A stretch of DNA of 64,000 nt from an uncultured Acidimicrobiia bacterium. Lineage in GTDB: Bacteria > Actinomycetota > Acidimicrobiia > Spongiisociales > UBA5794. Location of the stretch: the NCBI GenBank assembly GCA_963759175.1, contig CAVWXP010000008.1:10050-74049 (forward strand). Direction: 5' to 3'. The position numbers and the translations under genes were made by a program. The notes beneath the pieces were generated by a model, which searched no databases, was not told the origin of the DNA, and worked only from the letters and a program-made list of their open reading frames with translations. Position 1 is the stretch's first letter. Each line of letters starts with the position of its first letter. Below are positions 5,068 through 51,623 of this stretch, in pieces.

Positions 5068-6183
5068 ATGGTCGCCACAGAGAACGCGTCGAAGGGACGT
5101 GAGGTGGCTTCGATCCGCAGAGTTGTTCACCGGACCGGTCGCACGTCGTGGCAGGCCCGGTGGAGGGACCCCACCGGGGCGCAGCGGTCGAAGAACTTCG
5201 GTCGTCGTATCGACGCTGAACGGTTCCTCGTTACCGTCGAGGCCCGCAAGCTCGCCGGCACCTACATCGACCCCGGTGCAGGACGTGTCCGCCTCGGCGA
5301 CTTCACTGAACAGGCCACCTCGGGGTGGGTGAACCGACGCGACTCGACGAAAGCCCGCGACGAGTCGTATCTGCGCAGCCTCGTCCTCCCCGCCTTCGCC
5401 GACATGCCGATCGGCGCCATCGGTGTCTTCGACGTCCAGGAATGGGTGGGGGACCTCGACGCCGACGGGTACGCCCCAGCCACCATCCGCAAGGCCCACC
5501 AGCTGCTCGGACGAATCCTCAACGACGCGGTCAGCGGCGGAATCATCGCCGCCAGCCCGTGCCGCAACATCACCCTGCCCAGGATCGAAGACACCGAGAA
5601 GCGGTTCCTCTCCCCCGACGAGATCACCCACCTCGCCGACACCATCGATCCCCGCTACCGAGCCCTCGTCATCACCGCCGCGTACACCGGGTGCCGCATC
5701 GGGGAACTCATCGCCCTCGACACCGACCGCTACCAACCCGACCAGCAGATCATCCGCGTCGAACGATCACTCGCCGAGGTGCGCGGGCACCTCCGCTTCG
5801 GGCAACCCAAAACCGCAGCCGCCCGCCGCGCCGTGTCGCTACCGCACTGGCTACCCGACGTGATCGACCGGCACCTGGCGGACTATCCGCCCGGACCCGA
5901 CGGCTTGCTGTTCACCGCCTCCGAAGGCGGGCCCATCCGCCGCAACGCCTTCCGATCCCGCGTCTGGCTCCCCGCCGTCGACGACTCCGTCGGTGAGCCG
6001 ATGCGGTTCCACGACCTGCGCCACAGCCACGTCGCCCTCCTCATCGCCCAAGGTGCCCACCCGGCCGTGATCGCCTCCCGCCTCGGGCACACCAGCGTCA
6101 AGACCGTCCTCGACGTCTACGGCCACCTCTACGAAGGCCTCGACCGCAACGCCGCCGACACCCTCGACCCGCCCTGGGACTGA
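5068..6183 (+). CDS. int: tyrosine-type site-specific recombinase/phage integrase
   Basis: Catalytic-domain motifs RFHDLRHSH and GHTSVKTVLDVYGHL. About 370 aa. Ends 98 bp from the 3' end of tRNA-Val. Confidence 0.9.
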   Translation: MVATENASKGREVASIRRVVHRTGRTSWQARWRDPTGAQRSKNFGRRIDAERFLVTVEARKLAGTYIDPGAGRVRLGDFTEQATSGWVNRRDSTKARDESYLRSLVLPAFADMPIGAIGVFDVQEWVGDLDADGYAPATIRKAHQLLGRILNDAVSGGIIAASPCRNITLPRIEDTEKRFLSPDEITHLADTIDPRYRALVITAAYTGCRIGELIALDTDRYQPDQQIIRVERSLAEVRGHLRFGQPKTAAARRAVSLPHWLPDVIDRHLADYPPGPDGLLFTASEGGPIRRNAFRSRVWLPAVDDSVGEPMRFHDLRHSHVALLIAQGAHPAVIASRLGHTSVKTVLDVYGHLYEGLDRNAADTLDPPWD

Positions 6184-6209: not shown

Positions 6210-6280
6210 GACGCAACCGGCACCGCGACCAAGGAAGGGGATTGACCTAGGAAATCCAACAGCACAAGGGCTTCCGGTCG

Positions 6281-6352
6281 TGGGCGCTACTGGGATCGAA
6301 CCAGTGACCTCTGCCGTGTGAAGGCAGCGCTCTCCCGCTGAGCTAAGCGCCC
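6281..6352 (-). tRNA. tRNA-Val (anticodon CAC)
   Basis: Reverse complement folds as GGGCGCT acceptor stem, anticodon loop TTCACAC and GGTTCGATCC T-arm. CCA not encoded. Confidence 0.85.
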
Positions 6353-37183: not shown

Positions 37184-37951
37184 ATGCAGACGAACGTGAT
37201 CGAGGTGGCATCGGACGTCTTCTTCGTAAAGGGGCCTCGCACCAACTGGTGTCTGATGCACAATGAGGACGCTGTCACCCTCATCGATGCTGCCTGGCCC
37301 AGGGATTACTCGTTCGTCATCGACTCTCTACGCCAGATCGGGGCTTCTCCGCAGCAGGTCGAGGCGGTTGTCCTGACGCATGCCCATCCGGACCATGTCG
37401 GTGTGGCGGAGCGATTCCGCGCCGATCACGGTGCGGTCGTTCACACGCATCGTGCGGAGGAGGGCCACGCAATCGGCCGGTACCACGAGCATGTGCGAAC
37501 AGTCGATCTCGTCGTCCGGATGTGGAGGCCTTCGGTCTTCGCCTTCGCGATCAACGCGATCGCTCGGGGAGGCTCAAGGACGACCCCGGTGGCTTCGGTC
37601 GACACATTCGACGTATCGGCCATCAGCGTTCCGGGAGGACGTCTCGTACCGGTACCCACACCCGGCCACACGAGCGGCCATTGCTCGTTCCATCTGCCGG
37701 ATCACGGAGTCGTCATAACCGGCGATGCGCTCGTGAACCGCAATCTTCTCACCGATCGCCCCGGACCGCGGCTGATGCCATCCATCTTCAGCCACGATCC
37801 ATCCGAGGCAGTGAGATCCCTCGATGCCCTTGCCGGACTCGAGGCCGATGTGCTGTTGCCCGGTCACGGACAAGCCATGCGCATGACGCCCGACGATGCT
37901 GTTGCCAAAGCAAGAAGCCGATTCATGCACGCAGGGAGATGGGACCGCTAG
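37184..37951 (+). CDS. MBL-fold metallo-hydrolase
   Basis: THAHPDH metal-binding motif, plus downstream His/Asp ligands. Confidence 0.8.
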   Translation: MQTNVIEVASDVFFVKGPRTNWCLMHNEDAVTLIDAAWPRDYSFVIDSLRQIGASPQQVEAVVLTHAHPDHVGVAERFRADHGAVVHTHRAEEGHAIGRYHEHVRTVDLVVRMWRPSVFAFAINAIARGGSRTTPVASVDTFDVSAISVPGGRLVPVPTPGHTSGHCSFHLPDHGVVITGDALVNRNLLTDRPGPRLMPSIFSHDPSEAVRSLDALAGLEADVLLPGHGQAMRMTPDDAVAKARSRFMHAGRWDR

Positions 37952-37980
37952 CACAGCCATATCCAGGCATCACCTGACGG

Positions 37981-38262
37981 GCTTCAAATTCGTCGCCGTG
38001 CCGCTTGCACGGCAAGCTTCTCCTTCTCCAAAGCCTCCGTGGCGTCTGAACGGCCAGAGCGGAGCGGAACACCGGAGCGCAGAGAGCCCACACAGGAGAA
38101 GCCCCACGGCTTGGCCGCAGGGCTTCGAATCCGTCGCCGTACCGCTTGCGCGGCGGGCTTCTCCTGTTCTCCAAAGCCTCCGTGGCGCTTGAACGGCCCG
38201 AGCGGAGCGGACACCGGAGCGCAAGGCGCCCACGATTGGGGAGAACCCACGCCGACGAACGT
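37981..38262. repeat. tandem duplication of an approximately 141-bp unit (2 copies, about 85% identity) downstream of tRNA-Val(GAC)
   Basis: The copies align. Each contains a tRNA T-arm-like GGCTTC(A/G)AAT(T/C)CG segment and internal stems (GCCGTGC-N5-GCACGGC). Confidence 0.6.
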
Positions 38263-38314
38263 GCCGGTCAATGAATTGGGGGGAAGACCGCCAAGCAATC
38301 GTTCTCCCCAATCG
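38233..38314. repeat. 14-bp perfect inverted repeat CGATTGGGGAGAAC ... GTTCTCCCCAATCG (54-nt spacer) abutting the 3' end of tRNA-Val(GAC)
   Basis: Seen in sequence. The right arm ends one base before the tRNA 3' end. Confidence 0.6.
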
Positions 38315-38386
38315 TGGGCGCTACTGGATTTGAACCAGTGACCCCTGCCGTGTCGAGGCAGTGCTCTGCCGCTGAGCTAAGCGCCC
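38315..38386 (-). tRNA. tRNA-Val (anticodon GAC)
   Basis: GGGCGCTTAGCTCAGCGG..., anticodon loop CTCGACACG? read as TCGACAC, GGTTCAAATCC T-arm. Confidence 0.85.
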
Positions 38387-38440
38387 GGGTTTGTCGGTGA
38401 CCAGAAGATAGCCATCGAGGATGACATACCACTGCGGTCG

Positions 38441-38511
38441 AGGCGACGCCGGGAATCGAACCCGGGTACAGGGTTTTGCAGACCCTTGCCTCGCCACTCG
38501 GCCACGTCGCC
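38441..38511 (-). tRNA. tRNA-Cys (anticodon GCA)
   Basis: GGCGACGTGGCCGAGTGG..., anticodon loop CTGCAAA, GGTTCGATTCC T-arm. Confidence 0.8.
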
Positions 38512-38544
38512 AATAGGAAGGGCGGTCCTCGAGACCGCCCTCTC

Positions 38545-38620
38545 TGGAGCGGACGACCGGGTTCGAACCGGCGACCTCAACCTTGGCAAGGTTGCGCTCT
38601 ACCAGCTGAGCTACGTCCGC
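38545..38620 (-). tRNA. tRNA-Gly (anticodon GCC), CCA encoded
   Basis: GCGGACGTAGCTCAGCTGGTAGAGC..., anticodon loop TTGCCAA, GGTTCGAACCC, ...TCCA. Confidence 0.85.
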
Positions 38621-38653
38621 GTTCGGGCGATGGTACCACTCGATCGCGTCTTT

Positions 38654-39295
38654 CTACTGTGTGGAGCTTCGCTCGTCGATCGGCACCACATGGACGAGTT
38701 GACCCTGATCGCTGTCGTGTGTTGCGCTCGGTGCGCGCTGCAGCGCCGTGGCGACATCGGCCACGCCGCGGTCGATGATCGTGAGTTCTGGCATGTCGTA
38801 CGCATAGTCCCAACCGTGTGACGTCACGAGGATGAGCAGGCCGACGAGTTCGCGAAGGGTGAGCAGGAGGATGACGAGGCCGAGGACGAAGAACGCCACG
38901 CGTCGATTGGACTCCCCCGGTCCCATGAGCGCGAACGCCGGGATGGCGACCATCACGCCAACCACGGCGAGGACGGCGTGGCGAATCATCTTGGTGCGTC
39001 GGGTGACCAACACCTCGTGATGGATAACGGCTGCCTTGGCAGCGCGCAGGCTCGTGAAGTGAGTGGCTTCGATGGATCCGAGAACCGGGTGGCGAGATTC
39101 CTGCACGTGGACGACCCAACCGCCGTCGACCGGTCCCCCGGCGGGTTCGATGCGGTACCCGTCGTGACAGTGGGTGTCCCCATATGTGGTCCAACCCGGA
39201 AGATCCACGAGCTCCTCGTTCCAGTCCTCCCCAACGGTACCAACGAGATCACGGCGGCGGTACGGTTCTGGCGACCTCGACCGAGAGCATGCCAT
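38654..39295 (-). CDS. hypothetical membrane protein
   Basis: The C-terminal half has two or three TM helices. The start is uncertain because the ORF overlaps the divergent YihY start. Confidence 0.35.
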   Translation of the reverse strand: MACSRSRSPEPYRRRDLVGTVGEDWNEELVDLPGWTTYGDTHCHDGYRIEPAGGPVDGGWVVHVQESRHPVLGSIEATHFTSLRAAKAAVIHHEVLVTRRTKMIRHAVLAVVGVMVAIPAFALMGPGESNRRVAFFVLGLVILLLTLRELVGLLILVTSHGWDYAYDMPELTIIDRGVADVATALQRAPSATHDSDQGQLVHVVPIDERSSTQ

Positions 39296-40175
39296 GGAGA
39301 TCCCCAGACCACTGCGGTACCCCCTCGCCATCGCCAACGATGTGCGCATCGAGAGCAGTCACGACAACGTCGTCATCGTCGCAGCCGGCGTTGCGTTCTA
39401 TGCGGTGTTGGCTCTCCTGCCCGCCCTGTTCGTGTCCCTGTCGCTGTACGGCATCTTCACCGACATCGCGGAGGCCGAACGCCAGATCGACGCCTTGCTC
39501 GAGGTCTTTCCCGCGAGCGCCAGCATGGCCCTCGACACGCAGATTCGATCGATCGCCGCGGCGTCCCATGTGAATCTCAGCCTCGGATTCGCGGCATCGA
39601 CGGTCGCTCTTCTCTGGACCGTCTCCAACGCGACGCGGGCCATGATCCGTGCGGTGAAGATCGCCTACGACCAGGAAGAGGAGACATCACCGCTCGAGAA
39701 GCGTGTCGTCGCCATAGCCATCACCGTCGGCGTGATCATCGCAGTCGTGGTCGCTCTGGCCCTCATTGCGGCGGTTCCCGTGTGGTTGCGCCGATTCGAC
39801 CCAACGGATGCCATCGTGACGATCGGCAACTTCCGCTGGCTCGCCGTGGGAGCGGGCATGGCGCTGACCGTCGGCCTGCTGTACCGCTATGCGCCGCCGA
39901 TACGGCCGGATGGCTGGCGATCGGTGGTGCCGGGCGTCATCTTCGCAGCCGTCACCTGGACCGCTGCATCGATCGGCTTCAGCATCTACGTCTCATCGTT
40001 CGCGAACTACAACGAGACGTACGGGACCCTCGGCGCGGCGGTGATCCTGTTGTTGTGGTTCTGGTTCACTTCACTGGCGGTGATCGTCGGCGCCGAGGTC
40101 AACGAGGCGCTGGCCCTCCGGCCATACGACCGGAACCGTGCCAATGCGACGATCACGGCACCACCGGGGAGTTGA
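39294..40175 (+). CDS. YihY/BrkB-family inner membrane protein
   Basis: GVAFYAVLALLPAL ... six TM helices; YihY family pattern. Confidence 0.75.
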   Translation: MEIPRPLRYPLAIANDVRIESSHDNVVIVAAGVAFYAVLALLPALFVSLSLYGIFTDIAEAERQIDALLEVFPASASMALDTQIRSIAAASHVNLSLGFAASTVALLWTVSNATRAMIRAVKIAYDQEEETSPLEKRVVAIAITVGVIIAVVVALALIAAVPVWLRRFDPTDAIVTIGNFRWLAVGAGMALTVGLLYRYAPPIRPDGWRSVVPGVIFAAVTWTAASIGFSIYVSSFANYNETYGTLGAAVILLLWFWFTSLAVIVGAEVNEALALRPYDRNRANATITAPPGS

Positions 40176-51494: not shown

Positions 51495-51623
51495 GAGCTA
51501 TGAGCTTTGAGCTGTGAGCTCATGAGCCATGAGCGCGGCGGTTGGCGGTCGACGGTCCTTCCTGCTGTGAACCGTGAACCGTGAACTGTGAACCGAACTC
51601 AAAGCTCAAAGCTCAAAGCTCAG
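51495..51623. repeat. cluster of tandem heptamers (6x TGAGCTN, 4x GTGAACC, 3x CAAAGCT) with a 13-bp long-range inverted repeat TGAGCTTTGAGCT / AGCTCAAAGCTCA
   Basis: Seen in sequence between the thpR stop and the recA SOS box. Confidence 0.6.

What the first reader, a model, noticed from the sequence alone, without database searches (positions are those of the whole stretch)
37952..38314. About 141-bp tandem duplication with tRNA T-arm-like segments, plus a 14-bp inverted repeat butting the 3' end of tRNA-Val(GAC)
The intergenic region between the MBL hydrolase and a tRNA Val-Cys-Gly cluster holds two diverged copies of a unit containing GGCTTC(A/G)AAT(T/C)CG (T-loop-like) and internal stems. 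It is followed by CGATTGGGGAGAAC / GTTCTCCCCAATCG flanking 54 nt, ending one base before the tRNA. Both tRNA-Val genes in the window are therefore associated with repeat or integration hallmarks. These could be decayed att-site duplications, a 3'-trailer processing structure, or a small RNA.
Basis: seen in the sequence. Interest (0 to 1): 0.5.

Follow-up and report, generated by a model that had tools for sequence, protein, structure and literature searches.

The report
Hairpin-repeat trailer after tRNA-Val operon
The DNA just downstream of a three-tRNA operon in an uncultured Acidimicrobiia bacterium is a real array of long hairpins and a conserved 68-base element that differs between strains; it is most likely the operon's structured end region and resembles the repeats after the E. 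coli tyrT tRNA genes, so it is interesting but not a new kind of system.

Summary
The sequence features are real. TRF finds a 143-bp unit, 1.8 copies, 86% matches, at 37979-38233. The inverted repeat is 21/21 nt, not 14, and its right arm includes the last 8 nt of tRNA-Val(GAC). It is the longest perfect inverted repeat in the window. The "T-arm-like" reading fails: no flanking stem and no tRNA-model hit.

The tRNAs are on the minus strand, so this is the 3' trailer of a Gly-Cys-Val operon that converges on an MBL-hydrolase gene. It consists of hairpin modules (W, ZX) and a 68-nt element Y.

- Three ~96%-identical strains carry the modules in three different orders.
- A ~72%-identical relative (L022) keeps "tRNA end + perfect hairpin + Y" with different arm sequences.
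- Another relative (L020) has a canonical terminator at the same position.
- W and ZX arms differ at 8 of 13 positions, always on both sides.

No Rfam family, phage, plasmid or protein match was found. No second copy lies in the window, and no homologous copy turned up in 185,579 species genomes.

Best reading: structured terminator/processing modules, amplified and shuffled by recombination. The closest analogue is the E. coli tyrT-tyrV 178-bp trailer repeats. The role of Y and of the pairing with the tRNA end is unresolved.

The parts
38314..38386 (-). tRNA-Val(GAC), last gene of the Gly-Cys-Val operon. Its last 8 nt (38314-38321) form part of the right arm of the 21-bp inverted repeat.
   Evidence: ARAGORN; Rfam tRNA 65.7 bits; the repeat finder I1.
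38440..38620 (-). tRNA-Cys(GCA) 38440-38511 and tRNA-Gly(GCC) 38545-38620, the upstream genes of the same operon.
   Evidence: The same Gly-Cys-Val order is seen in L016, L020, L022, L023 and L024.
38226..38321 (-). tRNA-proximal long hairpin (module W, 38234-38313, plus flanks). The arms are 38226-38246 and 38301-38321, 21/21 complementary, with a 54-nt interior. The interior holds a nested local hairpin.
   Evidence: I1, I7. Fold: -58.8 kcal/mol, z -7.2. The nested hairpin folds at -20.4 kcal/mol. It is the longest perfect inverted repeat in the window.
38166..38233 (-). Element Y, copy 2. Read in the tRNA direction it starts GTGGGCGC, which is the complement of the tRNA 3' end GCGCCCAC. It contains three CGCTCC motifs and the conserved core TCCGCTCCGCTCGGGCCGTTCAAGCGCCACGGAGGCT.
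   Evidence: nhmmer E 2.9e-18. 87% identity to L022 over 62 nt.
38092..38167 (-). Hairpin module ZX. Arms ACAGGAGAAGCCC / GGGCTTCTCCTGT are 13/13 complementary with a 50-nt interior. The interior holds an alternative 13-bp hairpin (38098-38126). In L006 and L016 this module, not W, is the one next to the tRNA.
   Evidence: I2, I4. Folds: -69.6 kcal/mol, z -8.3 and -26.6 kcal/mol.
38024..38091 (-). Element Y, copy 1. It is more diverged and starts GTGGGCTC in the tRNA direction.
   Evidence: D1, D4; nhmmer E 1.8e-19.
37979..38024 (-). Module X, copy 1: half of a ZX module with no Z partner. On the plus strand it holds the hairpin GCCGTGC-CGCTT-GCACGGC followed by TTCTCCTTCTCC. This is the only terminator-like site the scan flags downstream of the MBL gene.
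   Evidence: D2; 38003-38017, +; fold -13.4 kcal/mol, z -3.0.
37979..38233 (.). The tandem array as a whole: unit X-Y-Z of 141-143 bp, 1.8 copies.
   Evidence: TRF; BLAST; alignment.
37184..37951 (+). Convergent MBL-fold hydrolase gene. Its stop codon lies 27 nt before the array. The left edge of the array (37980/37981) is the point where similarity to the window ends or jumps in all three close relatives.
   Evidence: Pfam; BLAST of L006, L007 and L016 against the window.

Best explanation
This is the structured 3' trailer of the tRNA Gly-Cys-Val(GAC) operon. It also serves as the end zone of the convergent MBL-hydrolase gene. It is built from two kinds of module:
- long GC-rich hairpins (W and ZX; 76-80 nt with perfect 13-nt arms and nested, terminator-like inner hairpins facing both directions);
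- a conserved 68-nt element Y.

The hairpin directly after the tRNA most likely stops or pauses transcription and blocks 3' exonucleases. That would define the ends of both converging transcripts (inferred).

The unit [hairpin + Y] was duplicated in tandem. It keeps being deleted, duplicated and reordered by recombination or replication slippage between its own repeats. The variation itself is shown by comparing strains; the mechanism behind it is inferred.

The stem continues 8-10 bp into the tRNA because Y begins with the exact complement of the tRNA 3' end. Arm sequences differ between lineages while pairing stays perfect, with no G-T pair. This points to maintenance of the palindrome at the DNA level, for example by template switching between arms, or to selection on the stem (inferred).

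Y may descend from a shortened tRNA-Val copy (weak evidence). Its own role is not known.
For: Position:
- The region lies immediately 3' of the last tRNA of a minus-strand operon, between convergent genes.

Conservation of the architecture (tRNA end GCGCCCAC + hairpin + GTGGGCGC) in independent assemblies:
- window: 21/21, W arms;
- L006 and L016: 21/21, ZX arms;
- L022: 18/18, arms GGAAGCCC/GGGCTTCC;
- L020: an 8-bp base plus a canonical intrinsic terminator AAACCCCCAGAGCTTGGGGGTTTTCTC.
- All four fold far better than shuffles, z -6.9 to -8.3.
- W and ZX arms differ at 8 of 13 positions, always on both sides, never on one side only.

Inner hairpins:
- Minus strand: GAAGCCCUGCGGC-CAA-GCCGUGGGGCUUC followed by UCCUGUGU, -26.6 kcal/mol, z -3.4.
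- Plus strand: GCCGUGC-CGCUU-GCACGGC followed by UUCUCCUUCUCC.

Recombination. In the tRNA direction the module order is:
- window: tRNA | W Y | ZX Y | X;
- L006: tRNA | ZX Y | W Y | hydrolase gene;
- L016: tRNA | ZX Y | ZX' y.
- All three are about 96% identical to the window over the MBL gene.

Not coding:
- A 143-nt period and 1-2-nt indels put the copies in different reading frames.
- A six-frame concatenate of the ORFs found no protein among 5.8 billion.

Known analogue, checked here:
- E. coli tyrT-tyrV is followed by a 178-bp unit repeated 3.1 times that starts inside the tRNA 3' end. It is annotated rttR/tpr.
Against: - Except in L020, the hairpins lack a proper U tract, and the scan flags only one weak terminator-like site. 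Termination is therefore not demonstrated.
- In L020 the terminator's U tract comes before GTGGGCGC. Terminated RNA there would not contain the strand that pairs with the tRNA end. RNA-level pairing therefore cannot explain why those 8 nt are conserved.
- A structural-spacer role does not explain why a 38-nt core of Y is 37/38 identical between the window and L022, whose coding DNA is only 70-76% identical.
- It also does not explain a 43-nt Y copy at a locus with no tRNA in the 2.6-kb contig (L017, E 2e-7).
- The predicted minimum-energy fold of tRNA plus trailer takes the 3' acceptor strand out of the tRNA. If that fold formed, it would be harmful rather than useful.
- W and ZX may be unrelated modules that replaced each other. 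In that case the 8 double differences are not covariation.
- There are no expression data.
Confidence: 0.45

Rival explanations
1. Relic of tandem tRNA-Val genes. The ancestor had tRNA-Val, a spacer hairpin and a second tRNA-Val. The downstream copies lost their middle and became Y. The stem reaches into the real tRNA simply because the 5' acceptor strand of the next (pseudo)tRNA is complementary to the 3' acceptor strand of the previous one. This concerns origin and can coexist with the best explanation.
For: - Y starts with GGGCGC, the first 6 nt of tRNA-Val.
- In the L016 copy, 14 of the first 18 nt match the tRNA without gaps (sequences).
- Y ends with GTTCAAGCGCCAC, which resembles the tRNA's GTTCAAATCCAGTAGCGCCCAC.
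- Global alignment of Y to tRNA-Val, with the first 6 nt held fixed in the shuffles, gives z about 2.5 and p 0.013-0.016 for 3 of 5 copies. The same test against tRNA-Cys and tRNA-Gly gives z below 1.
- The E. coli tyrT repeats carry a piece of the tRNA 3' end in each unit.
Against: - Local alignments of Y, and of the whole trailer, to the tRNA are not significant (p 0.07-0.96).
- ARAGORN and the Rfam tRNA model see nothing.
- The complementarity goes beyond the acceptor stem. The GT that pairs with A73-C74 is present in all four lineages. The bases just upstream of the real tRNA are CC, AC or GC, not GT. In L022 the match follows the complement (GGGCGCTA), not the tRNA 5' end (GGGCGCTT).
- A decaying pseudogene should not keep 37/38 identity across genomes that are about 72% identical.
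Confidence: 0.3
2. Scars of integrative elements. tRNA-Val(GAC) is an attachment site for tyrosine-integrase islands. Y and the hairpins would be leftover arm sequences of such elements, accumulated by repeated integration and decay. The CGCTCC direct repeats would be arm-type binding sites. The elements spread horizontally, which would explain why Y is so similar in distant hosts.
For: - L023 has a Phage_integrase fragment about 40 nt after tRNA-Val(GAC).
- Alignment between L022 and L023 stops exactly at the tRNA 3' end.
- Gene content beyond the tRNA differs in every lineage.
- L006 and L007 carry an extra hydrolase gene next to the array.
- Contigs L019, L021 and L006 break inside this tRNA.
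- Y is patchy (present in the window lineage and L022, absent from L023 and L024, a stub in L020) yet 87% identical where it occurs.
- The other tRNA-Val in the window has an integrase beside it.
Against: - There is no direct repeat of the tRNA 3' part, which is the signature of tRNA-targeted integration.
- No integrase or other mobility gene was found among the ten ORFs scanned between 23660 and 35537.
- The motifs were not found in 2.9 million viral contigs, nor in the phage or plasmid collections.
- The repeat facing the tRNA end is inverted, not direct.
- Core sites of tyrosine recombinases are about 7-bp inverted repeats around a 6-8-bp spacer, not 13-21-bp arms around 50 nt (established knowledge, not tested here).
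Confidence: 0.15
3. A low-copy family of small mobile palindromic repeats, MITE-, REP- or BIME-like. The elements insert at or next to palindromic targets such as the sequence GCGCCCAC|GTGGGCGC at the tRNA end. W, ZX and the L022 hairpin would be different elements, with the 8-13-nt arms as their terminal inverted repeats.
For: - The modules form a mosaic that changes order and number, and possibly orientation, between near-identical strains.
- W on the plus strand resembles ZX on the minus strand (z 2.6, p 0.013) but not ZX on the plus strand (p 0.55).
- A partial Y lies in another 3' intergenic region, next to a truncated DUF1214 gene (L017).
- In L022 the Y core has an inverted partner 101 nt away (18 nt, 89% complementary).
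- Without the insert, GCGCCCAC and GTGGGCGC would form a perfect 16-bp palindrome (read directly from the sequence).
Against: - No second copy of any module lies in the 64-kb window.
- The Y 20-mer has no homologous hit in 185,579 species genomes; the 5 matches are chance ones.
- The Y core pattern hits only 2 real loci in 241 million metagenome records.
- There are no target-site duplications, and no transposase or RAYT gene was seen.
Confidence: 0.15
4. A functional trailer RNA device. The operon transcript would yield either a stable small RNA (hairpin plus Y, with C-rich CGCUCC motifs that could pair with Shine-Dalgarno-like GGAG sequences) or a switch. In the switch, GUGGGCGC pairs either with the tRNA 3' end or with the local GCGCUC just downstream, and so tunes tRNA-Val maturation.
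For: - The Y core is strongly conserved (37/38) against a background of 70-76% identity.
- Three-way alternative pairings occur in both hairpin types.
- The predicted minimum-energy fold sequesters the acceptor 3' strand.
- There are precedents in E. coli: rtT RNA from the tyrT trailer, and a small-RNA sponge made from the 3' external transcribed spacer of the tRNA operon that includes leuZ (the latter from my own knowledge; I listed such papers but did not read them).
Against: - Y shows no covariation: the covariation term is +0.86 and only 2 of 19 predicted pairs show compensatory change.
- No Rfam family matches.
- All 60 stem base pairs are Watson-Crick with no G-U, which is unusual for RNA-level selection.
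- In L020 transcription should stop before GUGGGCGC.
- Y is missing from L023 and L024.
- There are no expression data.
Confidence: 0.12

Closest known systems
E. coli tyrT-tyrV operon trailer: 178-bp tandem repeats encoding rtT RNA (rttR; Rfam RtT) and the tpr ORF
   Same: - A tandem array of a 140-180-bp unit begins at the 3' end of the last tRNA of an operon. I verified this in NC_000913: 178 bp, 3.1 copies, 95% matches, starting inside tyrV, with rttR and tpr annotated on it.
- Both lie in an intergenic region that varies between strains.
- The function of the E. coli array has been uncertain for decades.
   Different: - There is no sequence or covariance-model similarity. No RtT hit appeared at E up to 10.
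- The E. coli unit carries a direct copy of the tRNA 3' end. Here no direct copy is detectable. Instead the unit starts with the inverted complement of the tRNA end.
- The units here are only 86% alike and come in two hairpin variants.
- The phylum differs (Actinomycetota, class Acidimicrobiia).
Intrinsic (factor-independent) terminators, including bidirectional ones between convergent genes
   Same: - The position is right: directly after the last gene of each converging unit.
- The stems are GC-rich.
- In relative L020 the same position holds a textbook hairpin plus TTTTCTC.
- The inner hairpins face both directions and are followed by U/C-rich runs.
   Different: - The outer stems are 18-21 bp around 48-54-nt interiors, far larger than terminators.
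- Most lack a U tract.
- The stem includes part of the tRNA itself.
REP/BIME mosaic extragenic palindromes of enterobacteria
   Same: - Both form hairpins at the 3' ends of genes.
- Both are built as mosaics of a few module types.
- The number and order of modules differ between strains. The description of BIMEs is from my own knowledge.
   Different: - The copy number appears very low.
- The arms enclose about 50 nt rather than forming 20-40-nt imperfect palindromes.
- No RAYT-type transposase was seen.
attL/attR scars of tyrosine-integrase islands in tRNA genes
   Same: - The same tRNA is an integration hot spot in relatives.
- The content downstream of the tRNA is variable.
   Different: - The defining direct repeat of the tRNA 3' part is absent.
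- No integrase gene was found among the ten ORFs scanned between 23660 and 35537.
Small RNA derived from a tRNA 3' external transcribed spacer (the E. coli operon that includes leuZ)
   Same: It would be a trailer of a tRNA operon that survives processing and acts as an RNA. The concept is from my own knowledge; I listed such papers but did not read them.
   Different: No evidence of expression, of targets or of an Hfq-like partner exists here. It is a possible analogy only.

Membership tests
RtT RNA / tyrT trailer repeats | Match to the Rfam RtT covariance model | tested here: not met
   cmscan of window 37400-39000 and of L006, L016, L020 and L022 at E up to 10 gave no RtT hit.
RtT RNA / tyrT trailer repeats | Tandem repeat array that starts at the 3' end of the last tRNA of the operon | tested here: met
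   [Hairpin + Y] units follow tRNA-Val directly in the window, L006 and L016. The E. coli reference was verified.
RtT RNA / tyrT trailer repeats | Each unit contains a direct copy of the tRNA 3' end | tested here: not met
   Local alignment of the tRNA plus 25 nt against the rest of the trailer gives p 0.96 in the window. No second copy of the 20-mer with up to 3 mismatches was found. Only a weak, gapped resemblance exists.
RtT RNA / tyrT trailer repeats | A discrete RNA is released from the trailer by processing | not testable with these tools
   No transcript data are available.
   ARAGORN finds only the 4 known tRNAs. The best Rfam hit is tRNA-Sec at 17.4 bits against a gathering score of 47. 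The bases flanking TTCGAAT do not pair (sequence).
Intrinsic terminator | GC-rich hairpin followed within a few bases by a U tract | tested here: inconclusive
   Met in L020. In the window only one weak site passes the scan (38003-38017, +). The other inner hairpins are followed by mixed U/C runs.
Integrative-element att scar at a tRNA gene | Direct repeat of the tRNA 3' segment bounding the element, with an integrase gene next to the tRNA | tested here: not met
   No direct repeat was found. Pfam finds no integrase among the ten ORFs scanned between 23660 and 35537. The feature is met at the other tRNA-Val and in relative L023.
REP/BIME or MITE repeat family | Many dispersed copies per genome | tested here: inconclusive
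   There are no other copies in the 64-kb window, no homologous hit in species genomes, and one extra partial copy in a metagenome (L017). The rest of the source genome could not be searched.
REP/BIME or MITE repeat family | Target-site duplication and/or a cognate transposase | tested here: not met
   The flanks are inverted (CCAC / GTGG), not direct. No transposase was found in the neighbouring ORFs.
Protein-coding gene | Reading frame preserved between copies, and homologues present in databases | tested here: not met
   The 143-nt period and 1-2-nt indels shift the frame between copies. A six-frame ORF concatenate found nothing at E up to 0.001 among 5.8 billion proteins.

The most novel reading that the evidence does not exclude
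The perfect 18-21-bp stem swallows the last 8-10 nt of tRNA-Val(GAC), and lineages keep it with different arm sequences. Together with the conserved Y element, it could be a previously undescribed device. One possibility is an RNA switch or decoy in the precursor that competes with the acceptor stem and so gates tRNA-Val maturation or releases a trailer small RNA. Another is a DNA hairpin or cruciform site used by a recombination system that targets this tRNA locus.
Probability: 0.12. Interest if true: 0.65.

Novelty: new variant of a known kind. Interest (0 to 1): 0.35.

Why it matters
If the reading is right, this is an actinobacterial counterpart of the E. coli tyrT trailer repeats, which remain poorly understood. 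It would show that repeat arrays at the end of tRNA operons arise independently in distant phyla.

It also offers a clean natural series for studying how long palindromes next to essential genes are kept perfect. The series has three strain-level arrangements and two more distant versions with changed arms.

For annotation it has practical value. It marks a hypervariable spot where metagenome contigs break. It also shows that the long ORFs over this region are spurious, including a gene call in L006 that extends a hydrolase into the repeats.

The conserved 38-nt core of Y is a concrete candidate for a new cis element or small RNA in Acidimicrobiia.

Tried and rejected
- T-arm or pseudo-tRNA reading of the GGCTTCRAATYCG motif: rejected.
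- Known RNA family: none was found in the window or in four related loci.
- Coding: rejected on frame shifts between copies and no hits for a six-frame ORF concatenate.
- Diversity-generating retroelement (template and variable repeat): rejected. The differences between the two copies are not confined to adenines, and I saw no reverse transcriptase.
- T-box leader: no Rfam hit. The strand facing the tRNA end lacks the UGG needed to pair with CCA (sequence).
- Integron attC: the arms do not fit RYYYAAC/GTTRRRY (sequence).
- Widespread repeat: the 20-mer TCTCCAAAGCCTCCGTGGCG gave only 5 chance hits in species genomes, none near a tRNA.
- Phage or plasmid origin: blastn found no match, and three pattern scans of viral contigs found none.
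- Synteny through the MBL gene: it led nowhere beyond the closest strains. Relatives at 72-76% identity have other neighbours.
- Exact look-up of the window's MBL protein: not on record.
- The last contig look-up (L026) ended before the tRNAs. The 243-kb contig that carries the 99%-identical neighbour protein was not returned.
- Bosl & Kersten 1991 could not be read.
- A literature search for inverted repeats overlapping tRNA acceptor stems found nothing relevant.
- Assembly artefact: considered unlikely. Four independent assemblies show the hairpin plus Y (window, Logan L006/L007, JGI L016, ENA L022), and L006 and L007 agree on their junction.
Full report
**1. What is in the sequence**

The window holds four tRNA genes. 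Three form a minus-strand cluster: Gly(GCC) 38545-38620, Cys(GCA) 38440-38511 and Val(GAC) 38314-38386 (Rfam 63-70 bits). The gene to the left is a plus-strand MBL-fold hydrolase, 37184-37951. The flagged 362 bp therefore lie between two converging transcription units and form the 3' trailer of the tRNA operon.

TRF reports one array at 37979-38233: period 143, 1.8 copies, 86% matches. Self-BLAST gives E 6e-34.

It is 21/21 nt (38226-38246 and 38301-38321) with a 54-nt spacer, and its right arm includes the last 8 nt of the tRNA gene. It is the longest perfect inverted repeat in the window. The next longest is 13 nt, and Markov simulations reach at most 12-13.

A second perfect 13/13 inverted repeat (38092-38104 / 38155-38167) lies inside the tandem unit.

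The "T-arm-like" motif exists but has no pairing flanks and no support from tRNA models.

**2. Anatomy**

I split the region into modules, giving plus-strand coordinates.

| Module | Coordinates | Nature |
|---|---|---|
| X | 37979-38024 and 38120-38165 | half of the ZX hairpin |
| Y | 38024-38091 and 38166-38233 | conserved 68-nt element |
| Z | 38092-38119 | other half of the ZX hairpin |
| W | 38234-38313 | hairpin next to the tRNA |

- Z plus X form a 76-nt hairpin with 13-nt arms, ACAGGAGAAGCCC / GGGCTTCTCCTGT.
- W is an 80-nt hairpin with arms GATTGGGGAGAAC / GTTCTCCCCAATC.
- Read in the tRNA direction, the window is tRNA-Val | W | Y | ZX | Y | X.
- Y begins GTGGGCGC, the exact complement of the tRNA end GCGCCCAC (A73 plus the next base included). 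This is why the W stem extends to 21 bp.
- Each hairpin has an inner element that can pair with one of the arms instead. The local hairpins fold at -20 to -27 kcal/mol.
- One inner hairpin faces the tRNA direction and is followed by UCCUGUGU. Another faces the MBL direction and is followed by UUCUCCUUCUCC. The latter is the only site the terminator scan flags downstream of the MBL gene.

**3. It is not coding and not a known RNA**

The long ORFs across the region read the two copies in different frames, because the period is 143 nt and the copies differ by 1-2-nt indels. A concatenate of five such ORFs found no protein at E up to 0.001. Rfam at E up to 10 gives nothing on the hairpins or Y in the window or in four related loci.

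**4. Relatives**

MBL homologues place the organism among uncultured Acidimicrobiia.

Three close strains, about 96% identical to the window over the MBL gene, show three arrangements.

| Strain | Order in the tRNA direction | Notes |
|---|---|---|
| window | tRNA, W Y, ZX Y, X | as above |
| L006 (Logan) | tRNA, ZX Y, W Y, then an alpha/beta-hydrolase gene | the extra ~935 bp, most of it the hydrolase gene, is absent from the window; L007 confirms the junction |
| L016 (JGI) | tRNA, ZX Y, ZX' y | no W module and no hydrolase gene |

In L006 and L016 the hairpin touching the tRNA is ZX. There too the stem is 21/21: GCGCCCACACAGGAGAAGCCC ... GGGCTTCTCCTGTGTGGGCGC.

I reached more distant relatives through the small protein next to tRNA-Gly. 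They all keep the Gly-Cys-Val cluster.

- **L022.** Coding DNA is 70-76% identical to the window. It has tRNA end + hairpin + Y again, with an 18/18 stem TAGCGCCCACGGAAGCCC / GGGCTTCCGTGGGCGCTA. Its Y is 87% identical over 62 nt, and a 38-nt core is 37/38 identical.
- **L020.** It has a textbook terminator at this position, followed by GCGTGGGCGC and a stub of Y.
- **L023.** It has an integrase fragment right after the tRNA. L024 has neither the hairpin nor Y.
- **Beyond the tRNA.** Nothing aligns between L022 and L020, even though their coding DNA is 82-85% identical. L022 and L023 stop aligning exactly at the tRNA 3' end.
- **Contig breaks.** L019, L021 and L006 all break inside tRNA-Val.

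The locus is therefore hypervariable, yet hairpin + Y recurs.

**5. Is the stem maintained?**

All four tRNA-proximal versions fold far better than shuffles, z -6.9 to -8.3. With arms aligned from the outside, W and ZX differ at 8 of 13 positions, always on both sides. Relative to ZX, L022 has both arms shortened by 5 nt.

All 60 stem pairs in the three long versions are Watson-Crick, with no G-T pair. I take this as a sign of maintenance. The absence of wobble pairs hints at a DNA-level process, such as template switching between arms, or at DNA-level function. This is inference.

One caveat applies. W and ZX could be unrelated modules that replaced each other. W on the plus strand resembles ZX on the minus strand (p 0.013) more than ZX on the plus strand (p 0.55), so W may be a flipped, diverged ZX.

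**6. What is Y?**

An nhmmer model of Y finds only these copies:

- two in the window;
- two in L006;
- one and a half in L016;
- one in L022;
- a 43-nt partial copy in L017 (E 2e-7).

L017 is a contig from the same metagenome as L016. There the copy sits between a small gene and a truncated DUF1214 gene, with no tRNA in the contig.

Y alone shows no covariation. It has three CGCTCC motifs and a small GCGC-N2-3-GCGC palindrome at its start.

A gapped global alignment to tRNA-Val is mildly better than chance (z about 2.5, p about 0.015, for 3 of 5 copies). Controls with tRNA-Cys and tRNA-Gly give z below 1. Local alignments are not significant. Descent from a shortened tRNA-Val copy is therefore possible but unproven, and it would not explain the strong conservation of the core.

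**7. Distribution**

- No other copy of any module lies in the 64-kb window.
- The Y 20-mer gave only 5 chance hits among 185,579 species genomes.
- The Y core pattern found two real loci in the metagenome collection.
- It found none in viral contigs.
- blastn found no match in the phage or plasmid collections.
- The tRNA 3' 20-mer has no further copy in the window.
- Ten ORFs scanned between 23660 and 35537 include no integrase.

**8. Comparison with known systems**

I checked the E. coli tyrT-tyrV locus directly. A 178-bp unit is repeated 3.1 times at 95% identity, starts inside the tyrV 3' end, and is annotated rttR and tpr. This is the closest known architecture. The present array is not a member of that family: there is no RtT model hit and no direct copy of the tRNA end.

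Other partial analogies are intrinsic terminators, BIME-like mosaics, att scars and small RNAs derived from tRNA spacers. The membership table sets these out.

**9. Verdict**

This is a real, non-random, strain-variable array of hairpin and Y modules forming the trailer of a tRNA operon.

The most likely role is as a transcript-end or processing structure for the two converging units, amplified and shuffled by recombination (confidence 0.45). The positions, the folds, the conservation and the rearrangements are shown. Termination, processing and the maintenance mechanism are inferred.

Two things remain unexplained: the pairing of Y with the tRNA end, and the conservation of the Y core. They carry the residual novelty.

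Noticed in passing
window 5068-6183 (+), next to tRNA-Val(CAC) 6280-6352 (-): A 371-aa tyrosine integrase gene (Pfam Phage_integrase E 6e-16, plus Phage_int_M) converges on the other tRNA-Val, about 96 nt from its 3' end. This is the classic signature of an island integrated at that tRNA. The trailer there starts GACCGGAAGCCC, which resembles the GGAAGCCC arm after tRNA-Val(GAC) in L022.
   Followed up: partly
L006 1199-2133 and L007 993-1798 (close relatives); the matching point in the window is 37980/37981: Two independent Logan assemblies carry about 935 bp between the MBL gene and the repeat array that the window and L016 lack. Most of it is a 265-aa alpha/beta-hydrolase gene (Peptidase_S15 / Abhydrolase_1). 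The public gene call (347 aa) extends the hydrolase into the repeats and is probably too long.
   Followed up: partly
L022 4772-5251 and L023 4771-5273: These relatives have about 480-500 bp inserted between tRNA-Cys and tRNA-Val; the window has 53 nt there. The insert carries a conserved 25-aa hydrophobic ORF on the opposite strand (MNGRYGIIWTVVGILLIIALLIYIF in L022). It looks like a small membrane peptide, possibly a type I toxin.
   Followed up: no
L017 1221-1263 (metagenome Ga0316197): A 43-nt partial copy of element Y (nhmmer E 2e-7) lies away from any tRNA in the 2.6-kb contig. It sits between a 110-aa gene and a DUF1214 gene that appears truncated to its C-terminal 135 aa. Here too the start of Y pairs with the sequence just upstream (ATGCAC...GTGCAT).
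   Followed up: partly
window 39303-39733 compared with L016 2048-2051: L016 lacks 431 bp that the window has. The missing stretch removes the start of the BrkB/YihY-family gene (39174-40175, +). The ORF next to tRNA-Gly listed as 231 aa (38654-39349, -) is probably 184 aa: the closest homologues are 184 aa and none is longer than 191.
   Followed up: no
window 51501-51622: The 13-nt sequence TGAGCTTTGAGCT has two perfect inverted partners (AGCTCAAAGCTCA) 89 and 96 nt away. After the tRNA-Val hairpin, this is the next most conspicuous palindromic structure in the window.
   Followed up: no
L019, L021 and L006 contig ends; L020 6070-6090: Three metagenome contigs end inside tRNA-Val(GAC), which fits strain variation or repeats breaking assemblies at this spot. 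L020 has a (GT)n microsatellite about 180 nt downstream of the tRNA, in a roughly 900-bp stretch with no called gene.
   Followed up: no
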